Source of the DNA: Gemmatimonadota bacterium
GTDB taxonomy: Bacteria; Gemmatimonadota; Gemmatimonadetes; Longimicrobiales; RSA9
Assembly (NCBI GenBank): GCA_040905425.1
Contig: JBBDRO010000074.1
Coordinates: 1 to 25,129, forward strand
Direction of reading: 5' to 3'
DNA: 25,129 nucleotides
Shown: positions 1,599-25,129 of the stretch, piece by piece
Layout: every line of letters begins with the position of its first letter
Numbering within the stretch: position 1 is the first letter of the stretch
The notes under the pieces: model-generated
Database searches by the model: none
Told to the model about the DNA's origin: nothing
The model's input: only the letters and a program-made list of their open reading frames with translations
Translations under genes and position numbers: made by a program

Positions 1599-2638
1599 CG
1601 GGCCCCCAGGGAGCCGTCCACCAGCCGCGGCCGCAGGATCGTGTAGGTGAGATCCGGCCGATCGTCATACCGGACCAAGCCCAGGAGCCCACCATCCACC
1701 CGCGTGGCGAAGCCCTCGATCCGGCCGCTTCCCAGCACGGCGCCGGTCGTTGCATCCAGCGCGTAGATGGCTGTGGCGTAAACCAGGGTGCGGTCCGCGA
1801 TCCGACGCCGGCCGTCCGGCTCTTCCCGGATCCCGCTCTCCCAGTCGCTCCCGGGCAACCTTATCATCACCCAGAGTCTATTGTGCTCATCCGGCCACAT
1901 TCCGCCGATGCTGGGCAGGGGCGGCGTCCGGAGTGAGTAGTCGAACTCTTCATCCGCCTCAGGGAACCAGGAGGGCGGTTCCGGAGAGAGCGTGCGGAGG
2001 TGTTCGCCGTCCAGCGAGAGGAGGCGGAAGGTCCACATTCGAGGATCCGCCTCCCAGACCTGGTCGCCCGCGTGGAAGGCGCGGCTGTGGTCGGGGTCGC
2101 GCGCGCTGAATGAACCGACGTAGCGCCCGTCAGGTGCAAAGCGGTGCAGGGAATAGTCGGCCGCTTCGGGCCGGCGGTAGCGGAGGTTAGCCACCACCAT
2201 CCCCGTGGACGCCACCTGGACGCGCATCCCCAGCACCGGCATCTCCGGCCGGAACGAGCGCCGCACTTCCAGGTCGGGCCCGAGCACGCTGACCCGGTAG
2301 TTGCCCAGGTCGTAGACGTAGAGGGAATCCGCCTCGACCTCCACCGCCGCGATGTCACCGTATTCACCCGGGCCGCTGCCCGGCCTCCCGACCTCACCCA
2401 CGCAGTCACCCTGCGGCGAGAACACCTGGAGCCGGTCCGAGCCCTCCCCGAACAGCACGTAACGGCCGCGAGCATCCACCGCACCGTACGTGGACTCGTG
2501 CGGGACCATGCACGGTGCGCCGGCTTGGCTGGTGAGGACGGCCAGCTGATCGAACTCGATCCGGTTCGGCGCCTCCGTCCCCGGGAGGCCCGCCTGCAGC
2601 AGGAGCGTCATGAGCGCCGGGGCGATGCTGATTGCCAT
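1595..2638 (-). CDS. Exported six-bladed beta-propeller-like protein
   Basis: 347 aa. N-terminal signal-like segment, GRPGSGPGEY motif, DSLYVYD and DEHNRLWV blades. GGAGG RBS upstream on the minus strand. Confidence 0.75.
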   Translation of the reverse strand: MAISIAPALMTLLLQAGLPGTEAPNRIEFDQLAVLTSQAGAPCMVPHESTYGAVDARGRYVLFGEGSDRLQVFSPQGDCVGEVGRPGSGPGEYGDIAAVEVEADSLYVYDLGNYRVSVLGPDLEVRRSFRPEMPVLGMRVQVASTGMVVANLRYRRPEAADYSLHRFAPDGRYVGSFSARDPDHSRAFHAGDQVWEADPRMWTFRLLSLDGEHLRTLSPEPPSWFPEADEEFDYSLRTPPLPSIGGMWPDEHNRLWVMIRLPGSDWESGIREEPDGRRRIADRTLVYATAIYALDATTGAVLGSGRIEGFATRVDGGLLGLVRYDDRPDLTYTILRPRLVDGSLGAR

Positions 2639-2672
2639 CCTGCGCCTCCGCTGTGTTGCGGGGCTGGGGGAA

Positions 2673-2758
2673 TTGCTGCGAGCTACGCCATGAGGGCATG
2701 GGTCGGATCGACGTTGGCGCTCTTCCGAAGATTCACCCGTGGCCCGGCCGCACGCAAG
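2673..2758 (-). promoter_or_regulatory. Conserved ~85 bp upstream element (copy A), homologous to the regions upstream of both ECF sigma genes
   Basis: Manual alignment to 19781-19865 gives about 64/86 identities. On the minus strand TTGCGT is followed 17-18 nt later by an xAxxxT hexamer, resembling a sigma-70 promoter. Confidence 0.6.
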
Positions 2759-2889
2759 GAATCGTCGATAGGCGCAGGCGCATCCTGCTATCGCTACTTG
2801 GCCAGGCGTTTTCTACCTTTGTCCCAGACGGTTGTTTTAGCACGCAGTACGTTATACGTTCTATTCAGGTCCTTCTAAGGGGACGCTGC

Positions 2890-3183
2890 ATGATCATTTC
2901 CTTTGCGAACAAGGGAACTGAAGACGTCTATGACGGCAGGAACACCAAGGCTGCGCGACGGACCTGCCCTGCAGCGATCTGGAGCGTCGCGCAGCGGAAG
3001 ATGACCCAACTCAACGCAGCCGAGCGCCTTCAGAACCTGGCGATCCCGCCGAGCAATCGACTGGAGGCGCTCAAAGGGGATCGGAAGGGTCAGCACAGCA
3101 TACGAATCAACGATCAGTATCGCTTGTGCTTCTCGTGGACGAACCACGGTCCGGCGGAAGTTGAACTCACCGACTACCACTAG
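2890..3183 (+). CDS. higB: Type II toxin HigB (RelE/ParE superfamily)
   Basis: From ATG 2890: MIISFANKGTEDVYDG...PPSNRLEALKGDRKGQHSIRINDQYRLCFSW...VELTDYH, the typical HigB signature. Toxin-before-antitoxin order. Confidence 0.93.
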   Translation: MIISFANKGTEDVYDGRNTKAARRTCPAAIWSVAQRKMTQLNAAERLQNLAIPPSNRLEALKGDRKGQHSIRINDQYRLCFSWTNHGPAEVELTDYH

Positions 3184-3193
3184 GAGGTCCCGC

Positions 3194-3502
3194 ATGACCC
3201 GGCTTCCCACGCACCGGCCGCCCACGCACCCGGGCGAGATGCTCATGGAGGAGATCCTGAGGCCGCTCGGCGTCTCCCAGACGGATTTTGCCAAGCACAT
3301 CGGCGTCTCGTACGTGCGCCTGAACGCCATCGTCAACGGTCGCCGAGGCGTGACTCCGGATACGGCCCTCCGGCTGGAGCGGGCTACGCGGATGACCGCC
3401 GGATTCTGGCTGAATCTCCAGCGCGACTGGGACCTCTGGCATACGTTGCACTCGGCGGCTGCCGGGGACATCGAGCGGATCCAGCCGCTCGAGGTGGCTT
3501 GA
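3194..3502 (+). CDS. higA: Antitoxin HigA (XRE HTH)
   Basis: AGGAGG RBS then MTRLPTHRPPTHPGEMLMEEILRPLGVSQ...IVNGRRGVTPDTALRL...FWLNLQ..WDL. Confidence 0.93.
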   Translation: MTRLPTHRPPTHPGEMLMEEILRPLGVSQTDFAKHIGVSYVRLNAIVNGRRGVTPDTALRLERATRMTAGFWLNLQRDWDLWHTLHSAAAGDIERIQPLEVA

Positions 3503-8345: not shown

Positions 8346-8643
8346 CTACCGCATGTGCTTATGCTCTGAGAAGCACTTGGGAGTATCCGGCGCCATGTCC
8401 GCATGGGGCTTGGCCACCGCGCCGCCGTAGGCGTGGCAAACACGGTTCACCATGGCGTGGCGCACGGTGGCGGTCCAGCCGGCGGCTGTGCCGGTGAGGT
8501 CGATGGTGGTGTGCTGCGGAACCTGGAAGCCGGCCAGCTCCGCCACCTCGGCTGCATAGCGCCGGTGCGCGGCGAAGTGCTCGTTCTGCCGCTCCACCAG
8601 CTCATCGAGGCCCTCGTGGAAGCCGTCCAGGGGGCCGGGGGTG
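8346..8643 (-). pseudogene. 3' fragment (copy 1) of the gene at 14357-14935
   Basis: 91 of 98 aa identical to the C-terminal part of 14357-14935 (DNA offset 6011). Homology stops abruptly at 8643, and the signal peptide and N-terminal domain are missing. Confidence 0.75.
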
Positions 8644-8651
8644 TCGAGGAC

Positions 8652-13503: not shown

Positions 13504-13791
13504 GTGGTGCGGGGTGGCGGTCCAGCCGGCGGCTGCGCCGGTGAGGTCGATGGTGGTGTGCTGGGGGACTTGGAAGCAGGCCAGCTCCGCCCCCTCGGAC
13601 GCATAGCGCCGGCGCGCGGCGAAATGCTCGTTCTGCAGCCGTACCAGCTCATCGAGGCCCTCGTGGAAGCCGTCCAGGGGGCCGGGTGTGGTGATGATCG
13701 AATAGACACCGTGGCGCGTGCTGAGACTGAACATGCGCTCCACGGCCGCGTAGCAGATGACCTCGGCACTGACGGCGGAATCCGCACTCAC
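13504..13791 (-). pseudogene. Internal fragment (copy 2) of the gene at 14357-14935, running into unrelated sequence
   Basis: ITTPGPLDGFHEGLDELV...GWTAT is nearly identical to the other copies. The upstream plug-like part is diverged, an in-frame stop lies shortly upstream, and the sequence after GWTAT is unrelated. Confidence 0.7.
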
Positions 13792-14356: not shown

Positions 14357-14935
14357 CTACTGGCCGTGCTTGTGCTCTGAGAAGCACTTGGGAGTATCCT
14401 GCGCCATGTCCGCATGGGGTTTGGCCACCGCGCCACCGTAGGCGTGGCAGACCCGGTTCACCATGGCGTGGCGCACGGTGGCGGTCCAGCCGGCGGCTGT
14501 GCCGGTGAGGTCGATGGTGGTGTGCTGCGGAACCTGGAAGCCGGCCAGCTCCGCCACCTCGGACGCATAGCGCCTGTGCGTGGTGAAGTGCTCGTTCTGC
14601 CGCCGCACCAGCTCATCAAGGCCCTCGTGGAAGCCGTCCAGGGGGCCGGGGGTGGTGATGACCGACAGGACGCCGCGCTGCACGCTGAGGCCGAACATTC
14701 GCTTTGCGGTTTCGTAACAGAGGACCTGCACATAGATGACGGTTTCCGCGCTCAGATCATAGTCCCAATTGTCGATGGCTACGACCTTCCCGTTCACGAG
14801 GATCATCCATTCGGGCTGCCCGACAGTGACGTCGGGTCGTACCGGACAGCCCCGATCCGGTGAGGTGCGCGCTCCGGGCACGGCCAGCAGAAGCGCCATC
14901 GGCAGGACAATCAGGTGCAGGCTCGGGAGGTTCAT
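14357..14935 (-). CDS. Exported hypothetical protein with a TonB-plug-like N-terminal segment and a pilin-like C-terminal domain (intact copy 3)
   Basis: Signal-like MNLPSLHLIVLPMALLLAV. ILVNG...DLSAETV..VQVL...A..MFG....GVLSVIT resembles the plug-domain signature. QNEHF..HRRYA...GWTAT..H....C..Y.G...C resembles a pilin head domain. Confidence 0.6.
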   Translation of the reverse strand: MNLPSLHLIVLPMALLLAVPGARTSPDRGCPVRPDVTVGQPEWMILVNGKVVAIDNWDYDLSAETVIYVQVLCYETAKRMFGLSVQRGVLSVITTPGPLDGFHEGLDELVRRQNEHFTTHRRYASEVAELAGFQVPQHTTIDLTGTAAGWTATVRHAMVNRVCHAYGGAVAKPHADMAQDTPKCFSEHKHGQ

Positions 14936-16249: not shown

Positions 16250-16458
16250 CGACTGCCACGCCACGGGGCGGGTCGGGTCGCGGAGCATACCGATACGTAA
16301 GCAATCGTCGCTTGCCGGGCAACAACTTGGCATCCACCCCTTGGCGGCCAGGAGCTGCCACGCCGTATTCCCCGCCTGCTAATCCAACGCTCCGCCGCCC
16401 ATCCGAGCATTGAACGCGCCCGCGGGTGGGTCTATCTTGGATGGAGGGAGGTCATGCC

Positions 16459-17037
16459 ATGGAGGCACGCAGCACTGAGCGGCAGCCCCGCCCCCGCTGG
16501 ACCTACGCGGAGTTTGCCCGCCTGCCCGAGGCGGGCAGCTCGCGCTACGAGATCATCGCGGACGAGCTCGTGATGACGCCGGCGCCCGGCACGCGCCACC
16601 AGCGCATTTCCGTCGAGTTGAGTTACGCGCTTCATGGCCACGTGCGTACGCATGGGCTCGGGCAGGTCTTTCACGCTCCACTCGATGTCCTGTTCGCCGA
16701 CGGCGACTTCTTCGAACCGGATCTGGTCTTCATCGGCAGCGACCGCCTCGAACTCCTCTCCGATCGCGGCATGGAGGGAGCCCCTGACCTCGTCGTGGAG
16801 ATCCTCTCCCCCTCTACCGCGGCCCGGGACCGGGGCATCAAACTGGAGCGCTACAGGCTCTACGGCGTGGCCGAGTACTGGATCGTGGACCCCCAGGCGG
16901 AGCGCGTGGAGGTGTGGCGGCTCGGCGCGGGTGCGGAGACGCCCGAGACCTGCGGGCGCGACGGTCGCTTCACATGGCAGCCCTCTGCCGACGCCCCCAC
17001 GCTGGCGATCGATCTGGCTGATCTCTTCCGCCAATAG
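16459..17037 (+). CDS. Uma2 family (DUF820) putative endonuclease
   Basis: WTYAEF..LPE, RYEII..EL.M.PAP...HQ, EPDLVF, GAPDLVVEILSPST...DR..K...Y...GVAEYWIVDP. GGAGG RBS. Confidence 0.9.
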   Translation: MEARSTERQPRPRWTYAEFARLPEAGSSRYEIIADELVMTPAPGTRHQRISVELSYALHGHVRTHGLGQVFHAPLDVLFADGDFFEPDLVFIGSDRLELLSDRGMEGAPDLVVEILSPSTAARDRGIKLERYRLYGVAEYWIVDPQAERVEVWRLGAGAETPETCGRDGRFTWQPSADAPTLAIDLADLFRQ

Positions 17038-17164: not shown

Positions 17165-18397
17165 CTACCCTGGGCCTCGCGTCAAAGTGTGGAGGTGTAC
17201 GTACTCCACATCATATTCCCCGAGGTGTCTTCCAAGGATGTAGTCCAACCCGATATCCAGCACGCGTTCGAACCGCGGCAATTCGGCGGTCGCGACGAGT
17301 TCCCCGGTGGGCGTGTAGATGCTCCAGGCCGCGGATGAGGCACTGGCATGCGCCGGGTGCTGGACCCAGAGTAATCCGGCGCGGTCGACGTGCATGTCGA
17401 CGAAGTAGGGGTGGTACTCCGGGATGGGAGTCCGCTCTACCTGGTCCTTCAGAGTCGAATGGAATTCTGCCGGGAAAGTTTCGAACAGGAATCCGTTTTC
17501 CATTGCGGCGCGGAATGCACGTTCATCTTCATCCGTCACGGGCAACCGAGGCGTCCTCACCGGAATGCTGGCGAGACGGTTTCCCTCGGGAGCGAACACG
17601 GAGATCTGCGGCTCGGAATTGTCGCCAACGAACACATGATCGGCCCCGGCCGCAAAAATGGTCGAGCTACCGTAGGCGACGGGCTGTGGTGGAAGGACGG
17701 AGTTGTTCCGGTCCCGATACACCTCGCTGCCGAGGAAATCGCCCAGTGTGTCCGTCCGGGCCGACCTGGCGTGCCAGATCATAAGCTGAAATCGCGGGCG
17801 TTCCGTTCCGAGAGGGCTAAGTACGGGTGAACTCGCTCTGCCCGAAAACAGAAAGCGCTCAGCGCCGAACGGTTCCCAGGAGCCGGCAGGCGGGGTAGCC
17901 GAACTGGCACGCGGCCCACGATCCGTCCTCGCCAGGCTGAAATCGGGCAGATGATAATAGTAGAACCCGTCCCTTGTGTTCTGCACCCGCAAGGTGTCGA
18001 CGCTGACCTCGGCGAGCGACGAAATGAGGTCGAATTCGCCCGGACCGCGGCCCTTGCGACCGACGGCCTGTTGGAAGACCCCATCCGCGAGGAATATCCG
18101 CATTTCCAACGGATCGCCGTTGGCCACGACGATGCGCCCATCACTCAGCTTGATGGCATTAAAGACTCTGTTGAACAGGTACGGCGCTGCCCCTTCCAAC
18201 TGGCCAAGCTCGAGGGATGGCGTGGGACTGACTGACCACGGCTCGCCGGGAGGATCCTGCGCTCCGACAGCATGAGGGAGGATGGCGACCAACCCCAAAG
18301 CGATGGTCGAGACAGCCCATTGGCATCGCTGGTGCCAATTGGTCCGATTGGGAACAGCGATGCAGGACTGAGGCGAAGTACTTGTATCCGCTGCCAT
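17165..18397 (-). CDS. Exported six-bladed beta-propeller-like protein
   Basis: 410 aa. Signal ending VGA-QD, G..EG..PYLF, LSDGRIVVAN, GRKGRGPGEF, VDRAGLLWV, W..Y...G, EYDVEYV. Starts 8 nt after the peptide gene stop. Confidence 0.78.
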   Translation of the reverse strand: MAADTSTSPQSCIAVPNRTNWHQRCQWAVSTIALGLVAILPHAVGAQDPPGEPWSVSPTPSLELGQLEGAAPYLFNRVFNAIKLSDGRIVVANGDPLEMRIFLADGVFQQAVGRKGRGPGEFDLISSLAEVSVDTLRVQNTRDGFYYYHLPDFSLARTDRGPRASSATPPAGSWEPFGAERFLFSGRASSPVLSPLGTERPRFQLMIWHARSARTDTLGDFLGSEVYRDRNNSVLPPQPVAYGSSTIFAAGADHVFVGDNSEPQISVFAPEGNRLASIPVRTPRLPVTDEDERAFRAAMENGFLFETFPAEFHSTLKDQVERTPIPEYHPYFVDMHVDRAGLLWVQHPAHASASSAAWSIYTPTGELVATAELPRFERVLDIGLDYILGRHLGEYDVEYVHLHTLTRGPG

Positions 18398-18405
18398 GGA
18401 TGATG

Positions 18406-18981
18406 TTACTGCTGCAAGGCGGCGGCCATCCGCCCTGACAGTGGGATTCCTATATCGAGACCAGTACAGGGCGCGACTGTCAATACATTGCGCATTGCGT
18501 CGACCGAGACCTGGGATGGACGTGCTGCCAATACTTTTTTCAGGGCTTCAGTCCGTCCGTCGACGACGAGGCTCAGGATGTAGGTCAACCCTGGGTCCCA
18601 GCAGCGCATGGTAGGACATTCGCCTGGCTGCCAATTCTGGGTGTCGCAAATGCTCTGAAGTCCAGCCTGCAGGTTTTCGATTTCACAGACGCGGCATTCG
18701 TCTGGAGCTTCGGAGCTATCGCATTCGAAAACACTCGACCAGATGTGCATGTCCGTGCTGTCGTTATAGGTGCAGTACATGCAATTAGGGTCCAGGGCAT
18801 TTGCTTCTGTTGGAGAGGTGGTGGAGGACGCTTGGGTCGACGTCCCATCCGCCACCGAAATTGCTGGAGGGGCTGGGAGTTGGACGGCGCCGTCCTGGGC
18901 ACGAAGGTCGACCGGCGTCGTGAGGAGGACGACGGTGAACAGTGCGAGCCCGAGTGTTCGGAAGGCTACTGAGGTGATCAT
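18406..18981 (-). CDS. Secreted cysteine-rich protein (8-Cys core plus a C-terminal domain)
   Basis: ATG 18981 after an AAGGGAG RBS; 191 aa. Signal peptide ending LRA-QD, Ser/Thr/Pro linker, core CMYC...C...CRVC...C...CPTMRC, then a tail of about 60 aa with one more Cys. Confidence 0.75.
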   Translation of the reverse strand: MITSVAFRTLGLALFTVVLLTTPVDLRAQDGAVQLPAPPAISVADGTSTQASSTTSPTEANALDPNCMYCTYNDSTDMHIWSSVFECDSSEAPDECRVCEIENLQAGLQSICDTQNWQPGECPTMRCWDPGLTYILSLVVDGRTEALKKVLAARPSQVSVDAMRNVLTVAPCTGLDIGIPLSGRMAAALQQ

Positions 18982-19066
18982 GGTGGCTCCCTTGGAGTGG
19001 GCGCTGGGCCGGTAAGGTCCCGTCCCGTATCTGTATCTGATCATACCCTAGCTTCACCGAACCGAA

Positions 19067-19753
19067 CTACTCCAGGTCCTCGTGATCCACCTTCATCCCG
19101 TCCTTGAGCGGCCCGCGACCCTTCCGCAGCGTCTCCCTGACCGTCGCAACCGCGATATCGAGATCCTCAGCGATTTCCGGGGCGGTGGCCTCTTCGAAGT
19201 AGTACTTCCGGGCTACCTCCTCCTGGCGGGGTGCCAGCCCGGAGAGGGCCGCGTCGGCTTTCTCAAGCACCTCGCGAGAAGCTGCCGACTGGTCGGGTTG
19301 CGTCGGAACGAGGAATTTCGGTGGGTGCTCCTGGAGCCGTTCACGGCGCCGGGTCTGGTCGCGCCAGAGGTTGCTGATTCTCCAGCGGACCGCCTTAAGC
19401 AGCACCCTGATCTGATGTTCGCGGGGGATGCCCTGAAGCGGCAGCTTGCCTCGGGCCGCCTTCAGAAATACCCACTGCACCACATCCTCCGGTTGCACGC
19501 ATCGCTCCACCTTCGCGCCGCCCATCATGCGGTTGGCATGCCTGAGCATCCTTGGCTGCGCTTCTGCCACGATTGCAGCAAATTCAGCCTCGGGGAGGCG
19601 GCGGCGACCGCCCTTCGGTCTCGCGGTTGAGCCTCCGGATTCGTGGGGCTTCGAACCCCGCTGCCGGTCCTTGACGGCCCGGCGGCGAGATGGGGTACGT
19701 GACATGCTGGCGCGGTCAACGGGCGTCCGGGCTCGGCTGAGGGCCATGCTCAC
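19067..19753 (-). CDS. ECF-type sigma-70 family sigma factor (copy 1)
   Basis: Region 2 (RMLRHANRM...PEDVVQWVFLKA) and region 4 HTH (LSGLAPRQEEVA...TAPEIAEDLDIAVATVRETL.K.R), with an Arg-rich N-terminal extension. Start is GTG 19753 or ATG 19747. Confidence 0.82.
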   Translation of the reverse strand: MSMALSRARTPVDRASMSRTPSRRRAVKDRQRGSKPHESGGSTARPKGGRRRLPEAEFAAIVAEAQPRMLRHANRMMGGAKVERCVQPEDVVQWVFLKAARGKLPLQGIPREHQIRVLLKAVRWRISNLWRDQTRRRERLQEHPPKFLVPTQPDQSAASREVLEKADAALSGLAPRQEEVARKYYFEEATAPEIAEDLDIAVATVRETLRKGRGPLKDGMKVDHEDLE

Positions 19754-19780
19754 CTCGCGCGTTCAAGGGCGGGTAGACGG

Positions 19781-19865
19781 TTGCCGCGAGCTACGTCACC
19801 AGGGCAGGGGTCGGATCGGGGTTGCTGCTCCTCCCAACGTGTGAAAGCGGCCCGCTGCACGCAAG
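19781..19865 (-). promoter_or_regulatory. Conserved upstream element (copy B) of the ECF sigma gene
   Basis: Minus strand reads TTGCGT-N17-CACGTT then a leader containing GATCCGACCC. Homologous to 2673-2758 and 24305-24389. Confidence 0.55.
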
Positions 19866-20007
19866 CCTCGTTTGCAGAACGCAGTGCCACACCGTTTGAT
19901 CCCCCACCCGCCCCCCGGTACTTTCTCCCCACGACGAACGATGCCCCGCCGCCGGTGAGCCGGCGCGGGGACGTCGCTTACCAGGAAGAGAAGGGGCGGC
20001 GGCAAAG

Positions 20008-20442
20008 GTGAGTGAAGAAGATCAGGTGATACGCATAGCCTCCGGGCAGGGCTTCTGGGGGGACCGGCTGAGCGCGCCTGTGGAGCAGGTGCGGCGCGGG
20101 CGGATCGACTACCTCATGCTGGACTATCTGGCGGAGGTGACCATGTCCATCATGCAGAAGCAGCGGGGGCGCGATCCGTCCCAGGGGTACGCGCGCGACT
20201 TCGTGCCGCTCATGGGGGAGATCCTGCCGGACTGCGTGAGCAAGGGGATCCGCGTGGTGGCCAACGCGGGCGGGGTGAACCCCGAGGGGTGCGGCGCGGC
20301 GGTGCTGGAGGAGGCCCGACGGGTGGGGCTCAAGGGCCGCGCGCGCGTGGGCGTCATCACCGGGGATGACATCCTGGACCGCCTGGAGGAGCTGAGTGAG
20401 CGGGGGCACGCGCTCCGTAACATGGACACGGGGCGGCCTTGA
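20008..20442 (+). pseudogene. Duplicated 5' fragment of an acyclic terpene utilization AtuA (DUF1446) family gene
   Basis: [12 protein letters not shown]...[15 protein letters not shown]. Nearly identical to 24532-24962 but ends at TGA 20440-20442, where the repeat ends, whereas the other copy continues. Confidence 0.85.
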
Positions 20443-20468
20443 TTCAGCTGACCGAACAACCGATCAGA

Positions 20469-21725
20469 TCAGGACTCAGGAGTTCCAGTCACCTCCTCCA
20501 AGGTTCGGAAATTCCGTGGCGCAAGGCGCAGTTCGAAGAACTCGATCGAAAAAGATCCCAGCGAATCTGGCAGCGGGCGATAGCTTGCCGCCCGCCCCGC
20601 TATGAATGATGCGATCGGAGGCACGTCACGCTCGTCTTCTCCTGGTAGATTGTCGAGCCGACCGGACGCGAGGACCATCCCTCGCTGGGGATCAAGGACC
20701 TCATAGCGAATGTCGTAAAGTTCGCTGGCTGCTTCGTCCGGGGCCCGCTCCTGCTCGATGGATCGGCCCTCCGCGTCCTCGACCAGCACCACGATCCAGA
20801 GACGGCCGTGTTCGTCCAGATGTAGGATTCGAACGTCGGGTAGCTGTTGTCCCCCTCGTACCACCTCAGCGTGGATCCAGTCTGCCTCCCGTCGGATCAC
20901 TTTCCCGCTATGGCCGTTGATGCTCCATTGCTCCAGGACCAACTCACCCGTTGACTGGACGGGCAGAGCGGCCCAGAAGGTGGTATCTCCGTCGTAAGCA
21001 CTGGGGCGCGGCGGAAGCATTCCGGTGGTCTCGGCATCTCCGGAATCGACTGATCCAAAGGATTGTACGACATACCCCTCGGGATCGAAGATGTGAAACC
21101 ACTGGTCGGTCGGCGCACCACCCACGCGGCCAGTCGAAAGAAACCGGCCGTCACGCAGGATGTGGAGGTGCCTCGGAATGCCTTGTATTGCAGGGCTCGT
21201 GATGGTCCGGCCATACGAATGATCCGGGCCGAAGACGGTCCACTTCACCCCGTCGCGTACATAGATCGAGTCCGCAGGCCCGACGAAGACCCGAGGCAGA
21301 CCCTTGCCACTGAGTTCTCCGGGGCCGCTCCCCGGCGAACCCAGGCTCTCCAGGAACATGCCATCGGCGCTCCATTCCAGTACCATGCCGGGGCCAGACG
21401 CCAGCGTTGCAGGTGTGTACATCCGGCCGTCGCTTGCTCGAGCGATGCTGTTCCAACTCGGATCGGGACGTTTGCCGGTCGCCGATGGCTTCAACATCTG
21501 CACCTGACGGACTGCGACCACCCGGCAGGGGGCCGGTAGTCCACCACGTATGACAACCGGTCCCGATGCCGCGGTCCTTTCGCCAGCCCGCTCCGGCTCG
21601 CATGCAGGTATTCCGACACCAGTTTCGACGCTTATGATCTCGATTGGCGCTTCGGCTTCTGACACATCACAGCCGACTGCCGCTACACCCAGGCCACAAA
21701 GTGCGGTCACCGTCGCCGAGCGCAT
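20469..21725 (-). CDS. Six-bladed beta-propeller-like lipoprotein
   Basis: Likely ATG 21725 (MRSATVTALCGLGVAAVGC lipobox). GSPGSGPGEL motif, GPADSIYV, LDEHGRLWI, YEVLDP..G.VLASG. Confidence 0.75.
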   Translation of the reverse strand: MRSATVTALCGLGVAAVGCDVSEAEAPIEIISVETGVGIPACEPERAGERTAASGPVVIRGGLPAPCRVVAVRQVQMLKPSATGKRPDPSWNSIARASDGRMYTPATLASGPGMVLEWSADGMFLESLGSPGSGPGELSGKGLPRVFVGPADSIYVRDGVKWTVFGPDHSYGRTITSPAIQGIPRHLHILRDGRFLSTGRVGGAPTDQWFHIFDPEGYVVQSFGSVDSGDAETTGMLPPRPSAYDGDTTFWAALPVQSTGELVLEQWSINGHSGKVIRREADWIHAEVVRGGQQLPDVRILHLDEHGRLWIVVLVEDAEGRSIEQERAPDEAASELYDIRYEVLDPQRGMVLASGRLDNLPGEDERDVPPIASFIAGRAASYRPLPDSLGSFSIEFFELRLAPRNFRTLEEVTGTPES

Positions 21726-21736
21726 GACGATTTGTC

Positions 21737-23002
21737 TCACGGAGCGCTCCAGCCGATGATTCGGAACGCCTCGTATCGCCCGCCGAGCGTATCCGATCGC
21801 TCGGCGACGAGAAGTCCCTCGGAAATTCCGACTGTACGAAAACCAGCAGGGATGGTCAACTCGGCGAGAAGCTGCCCATTCGGGCCAAGTACAATCCACC
21901 TCTCGCCATCTTGATCGTTTCCTGGCAGGTCATACTCCCGGATGAAACTCGTGCCGTCCGGTAGCGCGATCAGCCGGGAGGCCGAGGGGAAGCGGGACGC
22001 CGCGGCCCTGGCCGCGAGGTCCGTAAGGCTGCGCTCCACGCGTTCTGGGTGATCGCTCCCCACACGCACGATGCTCTCAGCATAAGCCTTCCGCCAGGCA
22101 TCGACAGCAGCAGGCGTTACGGAGCGATCCGCTGTCGACCATCGGGATTTCCACTGCGGCTTTCCTTCCAAAGACAACGAAAATACGACAGGTGCCGTAT
22201 CGGGCACCACCAGAAGGCCGTCGGATGTGACATCAACAGCAAAGCCCGGGTGGTATCCAAAAATGGGACGTGAGCCAGACTCTTCGTCCCACTCAACGCC
22301 ATAATGGAGGATCGTATCCGTAGGGTAAGGAGAGCCGATGTGCGACAACGCCGATCCGGGGACCATGACTACGCCACCAACCATTTCCTGCCCAAGTCGT
22401 TGCGTCCGCATCGAAAAGAGCAGTGACGTGTCGGCAAGCACCCCGAGAAACGGCCCAAGCTCGACCGGGGCGTCCCGGAGCCTCTTCGGTGTGTGACCGA
22501 CCGCAATCGTCCAGATATCCCGCCGACTGCCCTCGTCGCTACGCCAGGCTGCCACGATCACAACGGTGGAGTCGACTCCTGAGGCACCGAAGTCCCCGAA
22601 GCCTCGACTCGAGGTGGGCGCAATGATGACTTGCGAGGGTGAAGCAGGCGTACCTAGCGAATCGAGCCACAGCACCTGGATCTGGTTCTCTGCAGCCTGG
22701 AACACGATTCCCGTCACGCGGCCTGGGAGCGCCACAACATCTTCAACGTATGCCTCTCCCGGTAGCGCAATGGGGAAGCCGTCGCCGATTGTCCACTTGG
22801 CCGCGGATGCTCGGGATTGCTGCGAAATCAATGTGACGTGATCGACCGGCGTGGAACTCCGCAACACCTCCTGAGCGGGTCCTCTACCTTCAAGCTCTGC
22901 GGAGCATCCGAGCAGGAGAATGCTCAGGGGGACAATAGTTAGGAGCGTGCGCGGTATTCGATGAGAGCAGCCGGCACCATGTGGATCGGGAGCTACGTTC
23001 AT
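21737..23002 (-). CDS. Divergent beta-propeller-like lipoprotein
   Basis: ATG 23002 (alternative 23038). LLLGC lipobox. The C-terminal half (R.VT....AW...FP....LI..PDG..F.REY......WIVLGPNG.L.A.L..P.GF) resembles the other propellers, but GxGPGE is missing. Confidence 0.65.
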   Translation of the reverse strand: MNVAPDPHGAGCSHRIPRTLLTIVPLSILLLGCSAELEGRGPAQEVLRSSTPVDHVTLISQQSRASAAKWTIGDGFPIALPGEAYVEDVVALPGRVTGIVFQAAENQIQVLWLDSLGTPASPSQVIIAPTSSRGFGDFGASGVDSTVVIVAAWRSDEGSRRDIWTIAVGHTPKRLRDAPVELGPFLGVLADTSLLFSMRTQRLGQEMVGGVVMVPGSALSHIGSPYPTDTILHYGVEWDEESGSRPIFGYHPGFAVDVTSDGLLVVPDTAPVVFSLSLEGKPQWKSRWSTADRSVTPAAVDAWRKAYAESIVRVGSDHPERVERSLTDLAARAAASRFPSASRLIALPDGTSFIREYDLPGNDQDGERWIVLGPNGQLLAELTIPAGFRTVGISEGLLVAERSDTLGGRYEAFRIIGWSAP

Positions 23003-23082
23003 GAATCCGATACGTCGGAAACGACATGGTTCATGCATGATGTTGCCCCGTCATCCACATTCCGGTGTCTACTGAACACTGG

Positions 23083-23116
23083 CGTACGGAACACACCAAC
23101 GTCGGGGCTCCGCACG
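23083..23116 (-). other. Intergenic hairpin after the peptide gene
   Basis: On the minus strand CGTGCGGAGC...GTTCCGTACG forms a 10 bp stem with two G-U pairs. No U tract follows. Confidence 0.4.
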
Positions 23117-23141
23117 TTAGCTTGGGCGTTGCCGTTTCGCG

Positions 23142-23468
23142 CTAGCTCTCGCCGCCACCGGAGCAACCATCGACCGGGTGCTCCATGGAATCGTCCGTGA
23201 AATAGTCGTTGAGCGAGCCGTGATTGGTGCCCTTGCGACCGTTCGCATAGCCCTCGAACTCCCACTCTCCGTCCGGCTCCTGAAGGGTGGGTTGGTCGCC
23301 GCCGTTCCACATGTGATGAGGGTCATCAGGATTCAAGGTATCGATCTCCCACCAGTCCTCGTAGTCGTTGCAGCCGTCCCTCGATGCCGCCGGCTGAGCA
23401 GTGGCCAGCATCAGGATCGCCACTCCCGTAAGCGACACGGTTCCCTTAGCGATTGTCTTTCCGGTCAC
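23142..23468 (-). CDS. Small secreted acidic protein with two terminal Cys
   Basis: GGAGG lies 5 nt before GTG 23468; 108 aa. Hydrophobic signal ending QPAA/S. The mature part RDGC...VDGCSGGGES has 20 Asp/Glu, 4 Trp and 4 His. Confidence 0.72.
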   Translation of the reverse strand: MTGKTIAKGTVSLTGVAILMLATAQPAASRDGCNDYEDWWEIDTLNPDDPHHMWNGGDQPTLQEPDGEWEFEGYANGRKGTNHGSLNDYFTDDSMEHPVDGCSGGGES

Positions 23469-23590
23469 GGTTGCCTCCGCTTGGGTAGAATCAACTGGGC
23501 TTCGCATCCGGCTGCGTAGTCATCCATTGAAGGGCTGACCGTTCACACCAGGCACCTACATCTTCTATACCCTGGCTCTACCGAACCGAA

Positions 23591-24277
23591 CTACTCGAGG
23601 TCCTCATGCACCATGTTCAGCATGTCCTTCAGCTTGATCCGAGCCTTCCGCAGCGTCTCCCTCACCGTCGGAACGGCCAGGTCGAGTGCTGCAGCGACTT
23701 CCGGGGCCGTGGCGTCTTCGAGGAAGGACATCCGGGCCACCTCCTCCTGGCGGGATGCTAGGCTCGAAAGCGCCGCGTCGATCCGCTCCAGCGCCTCCCT
23801 GGATGACGTCTGTTGGACTGGCGTTAGTAGCGCGGCCGGCTTTGGTGGTTGCTGATCCAGCCGTTCCTGGTGGCGGGTCTGGTCGCGCCAGAGGTTGCTG
23901 ATTCTCCAGCGGACCGCCTTAAGCAGCACCCTGATCTGATGTTCGCGGGGGATGCCCTGAAGCGGCAGCTTGCCTCGGGCCGCCTTCAGAAATACCCACT
24001 GCACCACATCCTCCGGTTGCACGCATCGCTCCACCTTCGCGCCGCCCATCATGCGGTTGGCATGCCTGAGCATCCTTGGCTGCGCTTCTGCCACGATTGC
24101 AGCAAATTCAGCCTCGGGGAGGCGGCGGCGACCGCCCTTCGGTCTTGCGGTTGAGCCTCCGGATTCGTGGGGCTTCGAACCCTGCTGCCGGTCCTTGGCG
24201 GCCCGGCGGCGAGATGGAGGACGTGACGTGGTGGCGCGGTCGACCGATGTCCGGGCTCGTCTGGGGGCCATGCTCAC
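23591..24277 (-). CDS. ECF-type sigma-70 family sigma factor (copy 2)
   Basis: 228 aa paralog of 19067-19753. Residues 33-135 are identical, while the linker and region 4 are diverged. Confidence 0.82.
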   Translation of the reverse strand: MSMAPRRARTSVDRATTSRPPSRRRAAKDRQQGSKPHESGGSTARPKGGRRRLPEAEFAAIVAEAQPRMLRHANRMMGGAKVERCVQPEDVVQWVFLKAARGKLPLQGIPREHQIRVLLKAVRWRISNLWRDQTRHQERLDQQPPKPAALLTPVQQTSSREALERIDAALSSLASRQEEVARMSFLEDATAPEVAAALDLAVPTVRETLRKARIKLKDMLNMVHEDLE

Positions 24278-24304
24278 CTCGCGCGTTCAACGGCGGGTAG
24301 ACGG

Positions 24305-24389
24305 TTGCCGCGAGCTGCGTCACCAGGGCAGGGGTCGGATCGAGGTTGCTGCTCCTCCCAACGTGTGAAACCGGCCCGCTGCACGCAAG
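24305..24389 (-). promoter_or_regulatory. Conserved upstream element (copy C) of the ECF sigma gene
   Basis: Nearly identical to 19781-19865, including TTGCGT-N17-CACGTT. Confidence 0.55.
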
Positions 24390-24531
24390 AGTCTTCCGCA
24401 GGTGGGCCACCCACGCAGTTTGATCCCCCACCCGCCCCCCGGTACTTTCTCCCCACGACGAACGATGCCCCGCCGCCGGTGAGCCGGCGCGGGGACGTCG
24501 CTTACCAGGAAGAGAAGGGGCGGCGGCAAAG

Positions 24532-25129
24532 GTGAGTGAAGAAGATCAGGTGATACGCATAGCCTCCGGGCAGGGCTTCTGGGGGGACCGGCTGAGCGCG
24601 CCTGTGGAGCAGGTGCGGCGCGGGCGGATCGACTACCTCATGCTGGACTATCTGGCGGAGGTGACCATGTCCATCATGCAGAAGCAGCGGGGGCGCGATC
24701 CGTCCCAGGGGTACGCGCGCGACTTCGTGCCGCTCATGGGGGAGATCCTGCCGGACTGCGTGAGCAAGGGGATCCGCGTGGTGGCCAACGCGGGCGGGGT
24801 GAACCCCGAGGGGTGCGGCGCGGCGGTGCTGGAGGAGGCCCGACGGGTGGGGCTCAAGGGCCGCGCGCGCGTGGGCGTCATCACCGGGGATGACATCCTG
24901 GACCGCCTGGAGGAGCTGAGCGAGCGGGGGCACGCGCTCCGCAACATGGACACGGGGCGGCCGCTCACCGACGTGCTGGACCGGGTGGTGAGCGCCAACG
25001 CGTACATCGGGGCCGCGCCCATCGTGCAGGCGCTGCGCAGGGACGCCACGGTGGTGGTGGCGGGGCGCACTACCGACACGGCGCTCACCTACGCGCCCAT
25101 GATGCACGCCTTCGGCTGGTCGGAGGAGG
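24532..25129 (+). CDS. Acyclic terpene utilization AtuA (DUF1446) family protein; 3' end outside the window
   Basis: GTG 24532. [27 protein letters not shown], then SANAYIGA.PI..AL...A.VVV.GR.TD. The frame is open to the window end. Confidence 0.88.
   Translation, partial: MSEEDQVIRIASGQGFWGDRLSAPVEQVRRGRIDYLMLDYLAEVTMSIMQKQRGRDPSQGYARDFVPLMGEILPDCVSKGIRVVANAGGVNPEGCGAAVLEEARRVGLKGRARVGVITGDDILDRLEELSERGHALRNMDTGRPLTDVLDRVVSANAYIGAAPIVQALRRDATVVVAGRTTDTALTYAPMMHAFGWSEE

What the first reader, a model, noticed from the sequence alone, without database searches (positions are those of the whole stretch)
19043..24962. 1.4 kb direct repeat carrying sigma and atuA 5' end, with different cargo behind each copy
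Seen: the constant part (atuA 5' end, promoter region, ECF sigma) is duplicated at offset 4524. Similarity stops about 24 bp past the sigma stop codon, and each copy is followed by a different peptide-propeller set that looks less GC-rich than atuA. The first atuA copy is truncated exactly at the repeat end. No recombinase is visible. Inference: a cassette array grown by homology-anchored insertion at atuA, in which recombination between copies could excise a 4524 bp unit.
Basis: partly seen in the sequence, partly recalled or inferred. Interest (0 to 1): 0.78.

Follow-up and report, generated by a model that had tools for sequence, protein, structure and literature searches.

The report
Tandem sigma-factor operons with gene remnant
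Two neighbouring copies of a regulator gene (an ECF sigma factor), each followed by different secreted-protein genes, are separated by a leftover piece of the next gene, which marks a recent recombination accident rather than a dedicated gene-cassette machine.

Summary
The repeat is real. Bases 19043-20438 recur at 23567-24962 (offset 4524; 124 mismatches in 1396 bp). Each copy holds an ECF sigma gene, its upstream region and the first 144 codons of atuA. The left atuA copy stops exactly at the repeat end. Different cargo follows each sigma: a small secreted protein plus DUF5128-type propeller lipoproteins.

The window is a whole contig of a Gemmatimonadota MAG. Independent k=31 contigs of the likely source run bridge the atuA'|cargo2 joint. 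Depth there is about equal for cargo1, cargo2 and the rest of atuA, and higher in the shared part. That rejects a chimera of two strains.

Identity is mosaic: 71% in the sigma 3' half (dS 0.75), 98-99.6% in two tracts, and 54-91% between them. So two old modules were joined recently. One recombination end was homologous and one was a non-homologous join inside atuA.

No recombinase, IS, tRNA or attC-like site is present. The sigma subfamily was found only in this genome, so variable cargo across strains could not be tested, apart from one 198-nt hint.

The 503 bp and 272 bp exact tracts could delete or amplify the 4524 bp unit. I rate it an ordinary recombination product of moderate interest.

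The parts
19043..20438 (.). Repeat copy 1 (sigma1, upstream region, atuA 5' remnant)
23567..24962 (.). Repeat copy 2 (sigma2, upstream region, 5' part of the intact atuA)
19067..19753 (-). ECF sigma factor 1 (228 aa; ATG at 19747 with a GAGGTG Shine-Dalgarno is the likelier start)
23591..24277 (-). ECF sigma factor 2 (228 aa, 79.8% identical to sigma1; codons 34-134 identical)
20008..20442 (+). atuA' remnant: 144 codons, 100% aa identity to atuA, two synonymous differences, ended by a TGA created at the joint
24532..25129 (+). atuA, first 199 codons; runs off the contig end; the rest is not in the MAG
20438..20439 (.). Non-homologous joint: atuA codon 144 against the sequence 30 nt past the stop codon of the last cargo2 gene
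   Evidence: bridged by X1 record 3
18406..19044 (-). Cargo1 small secreted Cys-rich protein (probable start at the second ATG, 18981)
   Evidence: sequence; no family
17165..18397 (-). Cargo1 DUF5128-type 6-bladed beta-propeller
   Evidence: PF17170, 24.2 bits, cut-off 22.9
23142..23507 (-). Cargo2 small secreted protein (121 aa)
   Evidence: no family
21737..23038 (-). Cargo2 propeller lipoprotein (lipobox LLLGC); DUF5128-like by language-model features 0.93 and structure TM 0.72-0.77
20469..21899 (-). Cargo2 propeller lipoprotein (likely start 21728, lipobox AVGC)
19904..19980 (-). Module 5' boundary: TAAGCGACG tag plus GC-rich hairpin. Homology with the third sigma module on contig C47 starts exactly here. 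The second copy is at 24428-24504
19781..19866 (-). About 87 nt promoter-like region upstream of sigma. It is repeated at 24305-24390 and, ~80% alike, at 2673-2760 upstream of the propeller pair 2638->423
19043..19066 (-). 24-nt sigma-cargo spacer ending GGTAT: 21/24 identical between the two copies and 15/24 with the C47 module (random mean 6.0)

Best explanation
This is a genuine head-to-tail pair of two old, paralogous ECF-sigma operons lying directly upstream of atuA. Each operon has a tag and hairpin, a promoter region, the sigma gene, a 24-nt spacer, a small secreted protein and propeller lipoproteins.

The 1.4 kb repeat is a composite of two layers:
(i) Old paralogy of the sigma genes and their upstream regions (54-91% identity).
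(ii) Two recent copy tracts. One covers the sigma-2-domain coding part. The other is 541 bp and covers the tag/hairpin plus the first 144 codons of atuA.

The second tract began in homologous module-upstream sequence and ended in a non-homologous join at 20438/20439. That join left the atuA' remnant between the two operons. The mechanism is therefore general (RecA-type) homologous invasion resolved by an illegitimate end join, with no dedicated recombinase. The template was either the same or the sister chromosome (slightly favoured) or DNA of a related strain.

Consequences (inferred):
- Both sigma genes share promoter, N-terminal half and recognition helix, so they are probably switched on together. 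Each carries its own cargo.
- The exact tracts of 503 bp and 272 bp make the 4524 bp unit prone to deletion or amplification by unequal recombination.
For: Shown:
- The repeat and its mosaic identity.
- Divergence by segment: dS 0.75 for sigma codons 135-228, 0.014 for codons 34-134 and 0.155 for codons 1-33. atuA' has 2 synonymous differences in 431 nt. The modules are therefore much older than the event that made atuA'.
- The cargo sets are not homologous at DNA level, and their propellers are only 25-33% identical.
- X1 contigs. Record 3 (3537 nt, depth 34.7) spans 20367-23903, so it bridges the joint by 72 nt and carries the two copy-1 SNPs. Record 8 (2398 nt, depth 33.7) starts at 24891, carries the copy-2 SNPs and runs on past the contig end. 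Record 1 (cargo1) has depth 37.8, and shared pieces have 45-59.
- The ends of these three contigs at the edges of the exact tracts (19379, 20367, 23903, 24891) each lie 30 nt from a copy-distinguishing SNP.
- cargo1:cargo2 depth is about 1:1 in X1, X2 and X3.
- A third module on contig C47 has the same layout, and its homology starts at the same TAAGCGACG tag.
- No recombinase, IS, tRNA or Rfam family is present.
- The recognition helix TVRETLRK is identical in both sigmas (the helix position is recalled from general sigma-70 region 4.2 knowledge).
Against: - X1 may be the sample the MAG came from, so it is an independent assembly but not an independent sample.
- Whether X2 or X3 bridge the joint was not shown in the rows listed.
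- The 503 bp exact tract is not spanned by any k=31 contig. Phasing across it rests on the MAG assembler.
- The same graph also fits a chromosome without cargo2 plus a 4524 bp circle.
- No conspecific genome exists to show the state before the event, so the template (own chromosome or foreign DNA) is unresolved.
- Co-regulation and instability are inferences with no expression or population data.
Confidence: 0.6

Rival explanations
1. First reader's reading. A sigma2-cargo2-atuA segment from a related strain entered, for instance by transformation. It integrated with a homologous anchor in atuA/sigma and an illegitimate join at atuA codon 144 (homology-facilitated illegitimate recombination). 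The locus is a growing array of variable cassettes behind a constant part.
For: - The geometry fits exactly: donor cargo2-sigma2-IG-atuA, anchored right of codon 144, with the left end joined at 20438/20439.
- Cargo GC of 0.60-0.61 lies in the lowest ~1% of the genome.
- The 476-aa propeller has 50% and 45% homologues elsewhere but only 26% to any own paralogue. The pair order 433-like then 476-like is kept on a foreign contig, L106.
- A 198-nt contig in X3 and X4 (depth 10-14) shows a third sigma 3' end followed by unrelated sequence from 19058 on.
- The same model was proposed for T6SS effector-immunity arrays (PMC5361080; passages read).
Against: - There are only two units.
- The diverged 207 bp patch (19691-19897) between two near-identical tracts needs extra events.
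- cargo1 and the C47 cargo are equally GC-poor, so low GC does not single out cargo2 as the newcomer.
- No sigma relative was found in 72 same-family genomes, in the 5.8-billion-protein set, or in JGI metagenome, viral and plasmid collections.
- 0 of 80 atuA loci of relatives have a sigma or propeller hit.
- Competence of this lineage is unknown.
Confidence: 0.25
2. The tandem is not in one chromosome. Either the chromosome has cargo1-sigma-atuA and cargo2 sits on a 4524 bp circle (an excision product), or the assembler mis-joined paths through the exact repeat.
For: - The k=31 graph (two in-edges and two out-edges around a 503 bp exact tract) fits both a tandem and a chromosome plus a circle.
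- The contig ends only 167 bp after copy 2, and the rest of atuA is not in the MAG.
Against: - Equal depth of cargo1, cargo2 and atuA-rest in X1 (37.8, 34.7, 33.7), and about 1:1 cargo depths in X2 and X3. A non-replicating circle would not track the chromosome in three samples.
- A two-strain mix predicts atuA-rest equal to the sum of the two cargo depths, which is not seen.
- The joint itself is real at full depth.
- The unit has no replication gene.
Confidence: 0.07
3. A dedicated site-specific system, integron-like or directed by the AAGCGACG tag, inserts sigma-cargo modules at defined sites.
For: - The 5' boundary of the module coincides with the genome's over-represented TAAGCGACG tag at both loci, C74 and C47.
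- A 24-nt spacer ending GGTAT marks the sigma/cargo boundary in all three modules.
Against: - No integrase or recombinase was found in 65 ORFs.
- No conserved inverted repeat or shared motif lies at the cargo distal ends.
- The joint lies inside atuA, not at a tag.
- The tag occurs 602 times genome-wide, so a coincidence is easy.
Confidence: 0.04
4. A plain tandem duplication of a 4524 bp unit, followed by divergence of the cargo.
For: Head-to-tail geometry with a truncated gene at the join point is the classical signature of a tandem duplication (recalled general knowledge).
Against: - The cargo sets share no DNA similarity and differ in gene number.
- dS is 0.75 in the sigma 3' half but about 0.01 in atuA' and the sigma middle. 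A single duplication cannot give both ages.
Confidence: 0.02

Closest known systems
Orphan-module arrays of Rhs / CDI / T6SS effector-immunity loci (C-terminal displacement; HFIR model of Kirchberger et al. 2017, PMC5361080, passages read)
   Same: A constant 5' part acts as homology anchor. The variable 3' part of the same gene travels with its downstream partners. Units lie in tandem, and one end of the event is illegitimate.
   Different: Here the constant/variable gene is an ECF sigma factor rather than a toxin. Both units keep a full-length gene with its own promoter, so neither is an orphan fragment. The remnant belongs to a neighbouring, unrelated gene (atuA). There are only two units and no population data.
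Segmental tandem duplication with a truncated gene at the join point, later homogenised by gene conversion (general bacterial genetics, recalled)
   Same: Direct repeats, one novel joint inside a gene, exact tracts that allow RecA-dependent loss or amplification, and patchy identity.
   Different: The material between the repeats is not a copy of what lies left of copy 1. The two units carry different cargo that is much older than the joint.
Integron cassette arrays
   Same: A series of promoter-proximal, compositionally atypical gene sets behind a constant part.
   Different: There is no intI, no attI or attC, and no recombination sites at the cargo ends. Each unit brings its own regulator and promoter.
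Propeller lipoprotein genes attached to signalling modules elsewhere in this genome (earlier notes e1-3576129, e1-3576131)
   Same: DUF5128/TolB-like propeller lipoproteins are co-oriented behind a regulator and are patchy and fast-changing.
   Different: The regulator here is an ECF sigma factor with a basic N-terminal extension and no visible anti-sigma factor. The module is duplicated in tandem.

Membership tests
ECF (group 4) sigma-70 factors | Sigma-2 and sigma-4 regions only, scoring above the family threshold | tested here: met
   TIGR02937 scores 54.6 and 58.2 bits against a cut-off of 42.9. PF08281 scores 30.2 and 30.5 against 25.7.
ECF (group 4) sigma-70 factors | Cognate anti-sigma factor encoded next to the sigma gene (common, not universal) | tested here: not met
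   The downstream small proteins match no family in Pfam, NCBIfam or PADLOC. Each has only a signal-peptide-like N-terminus.
AtuA family (PF07287) | Match to the family model above threshold | tested here: met
   221.9 bits for the 199-aa piece and 136.3 bits for the 144-aa remnant, against a cut-off of 22.8. The remnant covers only model positions 1-132 of 437.
Integron | IntI tyrosine recombinase next to the array | tested here: not met
   0 of 65 ORFs scanned have a recombinase or integrase family.
Integron | attC-type imperfect inverted repeats at each cassette end | tested here: not met
   No inverted repeat lies at the cargo ends. No shared motif at the ends was found genome-wide.
IS / composite transposon | Transposase and terminal inverted repeats | tested here: not met
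Displacement arrays (Rhs/CDI/T6SS E-I type) | Constant 5' and variable 3' part within one gene, with the variable part linked to downstream partner genes | tested here: met
   Sigma codons 34-134 are identical. Codons 135-228 have dS 0.75 and dN 0.31. Each copy is followed by different cargo.
Displacement arrays (Rhs/CDI/T6SS E-I type) | Displaced units are promoter-less orphan fragments; arrays vary between strains | tested here: not met
   Both sigma genes are full length with the same upstream region. Strain variation could not be tested, apart from one 198-nt contig.
Simple tandem duplication | Both units are copies of one another throughout | tested here: not met
   Only 1396 of 4524 bp are alike.
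DUF5128 / TolB-like 6-bladed propellers | Match to PF17170 or PF15869, or the same fold | tested here: met
   17165-18397 scores 24.2 bits against a cut-off of 22.9. 21737-23038 has Atlas feature score 0.93 and TM 0.72-0.77 to DUF5128 clusters. 20469-21899 is shown only by BLAST to window paralogues, E 2e-9.

The most novel reading that the evidence does not exclude
ECF-sigma modules of this lineage are discrete, movable units. Each is bounded 5' by the lineage's TAAGCGACG tag and split at the sigma-2/sigma-4 linker into a constant half and a variable half that travels with its cargo. The constant half plus promoter serves as a homology anchor through which new sigma-4 plus peptide-propeller sets are captured from the population. 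That would build arrays in the way toxin-immunity arrays grow, but for regulators and envelope proteins.
Probability: 0.12. Interest if true: 0.7.

Novelty: new member of a known kind. Interest (0 to 1): 0.35.

Why it matters
This is a clean, read-supported example of how one homologous end and one illegitimate end can stack two regulator-plus-cargo operons. It leaves a datable remnant of the neighbouring gene, in an uncultured Gemmatimonadota lineage where nothing is known about recombination.

It also shows that a lineage-specific ECF sigma subfamily (three paralogues, not found elsewhere) is consistently tied to small secreted proteins and propeller lipoproteins from a very large, fast-changing family. 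That gives a handle on what controls this family.

If the bolder reading held, it would extend constant-anchor, variable-tip evolution from toxins to transcription factors.

Tried and rejected
Searches for comparators, none of which gave a usable relative of the sigma gene:
- 40 relatives: best match outside this genome 28% identity, E 1.6e-7.
- 72 genomes of the same family at E<=1e-10: 0 of 72.
- The 5.8-billion-protein collection: only the window's own two proteins.
- JGI metagenome contigs, viral contigs, and plasmids by DNA: nothing.

The counts include the unpublished genomes G016, G018 and G026. These gave only weak or no matches.

atuA loci of 80 relatives: 0 of 80 have a sigma or propeller hit at E<=1e-5. 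These are other genera, so they say nothing about strain-level cargo variation.

Motif and element checks:
- A shared motif at cargo ends: the resemblance between the sequence after the sigma stop and that after the 476-aa stop has no genome-wide support.
- Reading the 87-nt upstream region as a sigma-54 or standard ECF -35/-10 pair by eye: spacings do not fit, so it stays 'promoter-like'.
- The sigma-70 and terminator scan found no more than the shuffles.
- Rfam and tRNA scans found none.
- The hairpin as a REP family: only the two local copies at <=5 mismatches. The weaker genome-wide matches come from the AAGCGACG tag.
- PADLOC on cargo and sigma: nothing, except Uma2 matching candidate family PDC-S03.

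Literature: 'DUF5128', 'NVEALA', and 'Gemmatimonadota' + 'ECF sigma' + 'beta-propeller' each returned 0 papers in the held library.

Runs: the X4 run (share 0.12) is too patchy to use. Holes in its cover are not evidence.

Technical: script failures were rerun. The coordinate error was corrected.
Full report
WHAT IS THERE

The window is the whole of contig C74 (25129 bp) of a MAG with 115 contigs, 96.7% completeness and 2.7% contamination. Its AtuA relatives are named Gemmatimonadota, mostly Longimicrobiales.

The direct repeat is real. Bases 19043-20438 recur at 23567-24962, offset 4524. There are 124 mismatches in 1396 bp, and blastn gives 91.5%.

Each copy holds three things:
- An ECF sigma gene on the minus strand: 19067-19753 and 23591-24277. 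TIGR02937 scores above its cut-off, and the proteins are 79.8% identical.
- About 250 nt of upstream region.
- On the plus strand, the first 144 codons of atuA (PF07287).

Copy 1's atuA stops at the repeat end, inside codon 144, and a TGA follows immediately. Copy 2's atuA reads on to the contig end. No other AtuA sequence is in the MAG.

Similarity ends 24 nt past the sigma stop codon. Behind sigma1 lie a 212-aa Cys-rich secreted protein and a DUF5128 propeller. Behind sigma2 lie a 121-aa secreted protein and two propeller lipoproteins. The two cargo sets share no DNA similarity.

IS IT AN ASSEMBLY ARTEFACT?

Five public runs hold the stretch or part of it. One of them (X1) may be the source sample. 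I laid four of them, X1 to X4, as Logan k=31 contigs.

In X1:
- Record 3 (3537 nt, depth 34.7) covers 20367-23903 with no differences. It crosses the joint 20438/20439 by 72 nt and carries the two SNPs that mark copy 1.
- Record 8 (2398 nt, depth 33.7) starts at 24891, carries the copy-2 SNPs and continues about 2.2 kb past the contig end.
- Record 1 (cargo1) has depth 37.8. It ends at 19379.
- The ends of these three contigs at the edges of the exact tracts (19379, 20367, 23903, 24891) each lie 30 nt from a copy-distinguishing mismatch. A k=31 graph of the MAG sequence predicts exactly that.
- Shared pieces have depth 45-59.

A mixture of two strains, each with one module next to atuA, predicts that the rest of atuA has the summed depth. 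It has single depth, so that model is rejected. cargo1 and cargo2 are also about 1:1 in X2 (3.6-3.9 against 4.1-4.8) and in X3 (5.7-6.5 against 3.7-6.3).

Three uncertainties remain:
- The 503 bp exact tract (19894-20396) is not spanned by any contig. The graph equally fits a chromosome without cargo2 plus a 4524 bp circle. I rate that unlikely because of the constant 1:1 depth and the lack of any replication gene.
- X1 is an independent assembly, not an independent sample.
- I could not see whether X2 or X3 bridge the joint.

AGE STRUCTURE

Identity by segment and the matching divergence:

| Segment | Content | Identity | Divergence |
|---|---|---|---|
| 19043-19340 | 24-nt spacer + sigma 3' end (codons ~138-228) | 71% | dS 0.75, dN 0.31 (codons 135-228) |
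| 19341-19690 | sigma middle (codons ~22-137) | 98% | dS 0.014 (codons 34-134) |
| 19691-19869 | sigma 5' end (codons ~1-21) + upstream | 91% | dS 0.155 (codons 1-33) |
| 19870-19897 | short upstream block | 54% | - |
| 19898-20438 | tag, hairpin, atuA' | 99.6% | 2 synonymous differences in 431 nt of atuA' |

A single tandem duplication followed by divergence cannot give these different ages. The sigma 3' halves and their cargo are far older than the event that produced atuA'. At least two recent copy tracts exist, separated by a 207 bp older patch.

THE MODULE

A third sigma paralogue (36-39% identity) sits on contig C47. It is followed by a 117-aa Cys-rich secreted protein, a TolB-like propeller, a DsbA-like protein and a DUF5128/NHL propeller.

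Three features are shared with the C74 modules:
- Its upstream region is homologous to that of sigma1 (local score 90, shuffle maximum 44).
- The homology begins exactly at TAAGCGACG. I count 602 occurrences in the genome, with a weak consensus beyond about 6 nt.
- The 24-nt spacer after the sigma stop matches at 15 of 24 positions (random mean 6.0; P about 5e-5) and ends GGTAT in all three modules.

So the unit is tag/hairpin, promoter region, sigma, spacer, then cargo. The atuA piece is not part of the module.

All three cargo sets are GC-poor: 0.60, 0.61 and 0.58 against 0.705 for the genome. The lowest 1% of 1.5 kb windows begins at 0.61.

The propellers belong to a very large family. One window member gave 40 tblastn matches, and another gave 37, on many contigs. 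The cargo2 proteins have no close paralogue. Their best relatives, at 50% and 45%, are in other metagenomes. On contig L106, a 433-like gene is followed by a 476-like gene in the same order, at normal GC and without a sigma gene.

MECHANISM

The recent 541 bp tract starts inside module-upstream sequence that is homologous between modules (19904-19980). It ends at a joint with no homology, 30 nt past the stop of the last cargo2 gene. That is the footprint of a homologous invasion resolved by an illegitimate join.

Two routes fit:
- (a) The two modules were already neighbours. A break near sigma1's upstream region was repaired from sigma2's upstream region, copying on into atuA before the end was captured. 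The sigma-middle tract is then a separate gene conversion, and the 207 bp patch is old paralogous sequence. I favour this route slightly because it explains the patchwork.
- (b) A related strain's allele was inserted by homology-facilitated illegitimate recombination.

Supporting route (b): a 198-nt contig in X3 and X4 (depth 10-14) carries a third sigma 3' end followed by unrelated sequence from 19058 on. That is thin evidence.

No recombinase, transposase, integrase, tRNA or Rfam element is present (65 ORFs).

LIKELY CONSEQUENCES (INFERRED)

- Both sigma genes keep the same upstream region, N-terminal basic extension, sigma-2 domain and recognition helix (TVRETLRK). They probably respond to the same signal and read the same promoters.
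- The differences lie in the linker and the first helices of region 4.
- The 87-nt region upstream of both sigmas recurs, ~80% alike, upstream of the propeller pair 2638->423, and nowhere else in the genome. This suggests a small regulon.
- The atuA' promoter now points antisense into cargo2.
- The 503 bp and 272 bp exact tracts allow RecA-type loss or amplification of the 4524 bp unit.

CONTEXT

In 63 of 67 relatives' loci with at least 2 kb upstream, a carboxyltransferase (AtuC/MccB-like by its sequence; the name is recalled) lies upstream of atuA on the same strand. In 22 of the 67 it ends within 700 nt. None of the 80 loci has a sigma or propeller hit.

In this MAG that carboxyltransferase is at the very start of contig C100 and lacks its last 108 codons. 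The sigma modules therefore sit at a break of conserved synteny. Two contigs end within about 0.6 kb of that break, which may reflect population heterogeneity there.

VERDICT

- Observation: confirmed.
- Interpretation: partly supported. The joint is real, and the event had one homologous and one illegitimate end. A 'cassette array' is not shown.
- It is a well-documented but ordinary product of general recombination in a plastic region.
- Interest 0.35.
- The bolder reading (movable sigma modules with a constant anchor and a variable sigma-4-plus-cargo tip) is not excluded, at probability about 0.12.

Noticed in passing
window 8355-8651, 13504-13790, 14366-14662: A second direct-repeat family. 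The 3' ~300 nt of a small-protein gene occurs three times (94% between the outer two copies, 83-90% to the middle one). The outer copies, 6011 bp apart, bracket a lower-GC stretch (two genes measured, GC 0.61-0.64) with a DsbA-like gene, a propeller and a sigma-54 activator.
   Followed up: partly
G000 contig C100:3-1280 (minus strand) and window end 24532-25129: The conserved upstream partner of atuA is a carboxyltransferase, present upstream in 63 of 67 relatives' loci. In this MAG it lies at the very start of another contig and lacks its last 108 codons. The sigma modules therefore sit at a synteny break, and both contigs end beside it.
   Followed up: partly
window 19972-19979 and 24496-24503; G000 C47:7196: The lineage's over-represented word AAGCGACG (602 occurrences in the genome) marks the exact 5' start of homology between the sigma modules of C74 and C47.
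   Followed up: partly
window 2673-2760 vs 19781-19866 and 24305-24390: An ~87-nt upstream region is shared, at ~80%, by both sigma genes and by the propeller pair 2638->423. These are the only three copies in the genome, so it may be a common promoter.
   Followed up: partly
window 2632-3502 (+): A HigB-like toxin domain (PF05015, E 6e-16) is followed by an HTH_3 antitoxin-like gene, lying between the aminotransferase and the propeller pair.
   Followed up: no
window 16426-17037 (+): A Uma2-family putative endonuclease (PF05685, E 4e-37; PADLOC candidate PDC-S03) lies on the opposite strand between two propeller genes. The 232-aa minus-strand ORF over it is spurious.
   Followed up: no
runs X3 and X4, at window 19058-19088 / 23625-23708: A 198-nt contig (depth 10-14) carries a third, mosaic sigma 3' end followed by unrelated sequence. 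X3 also holds a related strain with many differences across 23755-25074.
   Followed up: no
G000 C47:7414-11616 (locus L105): A third sigma module with the same layout: sigma, 117-aa Cys-rich secreted protein, TolB-like propeller, DsbA-like protein, DUF5128/NHL propeller. Cargo GC is 0.576.
   Followed up: yes
L106:8770-11272: A foreign metagenome contig keeps the cargo2 propeller pair in the same order (29% and 45% identity), at normal GC (0.68-0.74) and with no window sigma homologue among its ORFs of 100 aa or more.
   Followed up: partly
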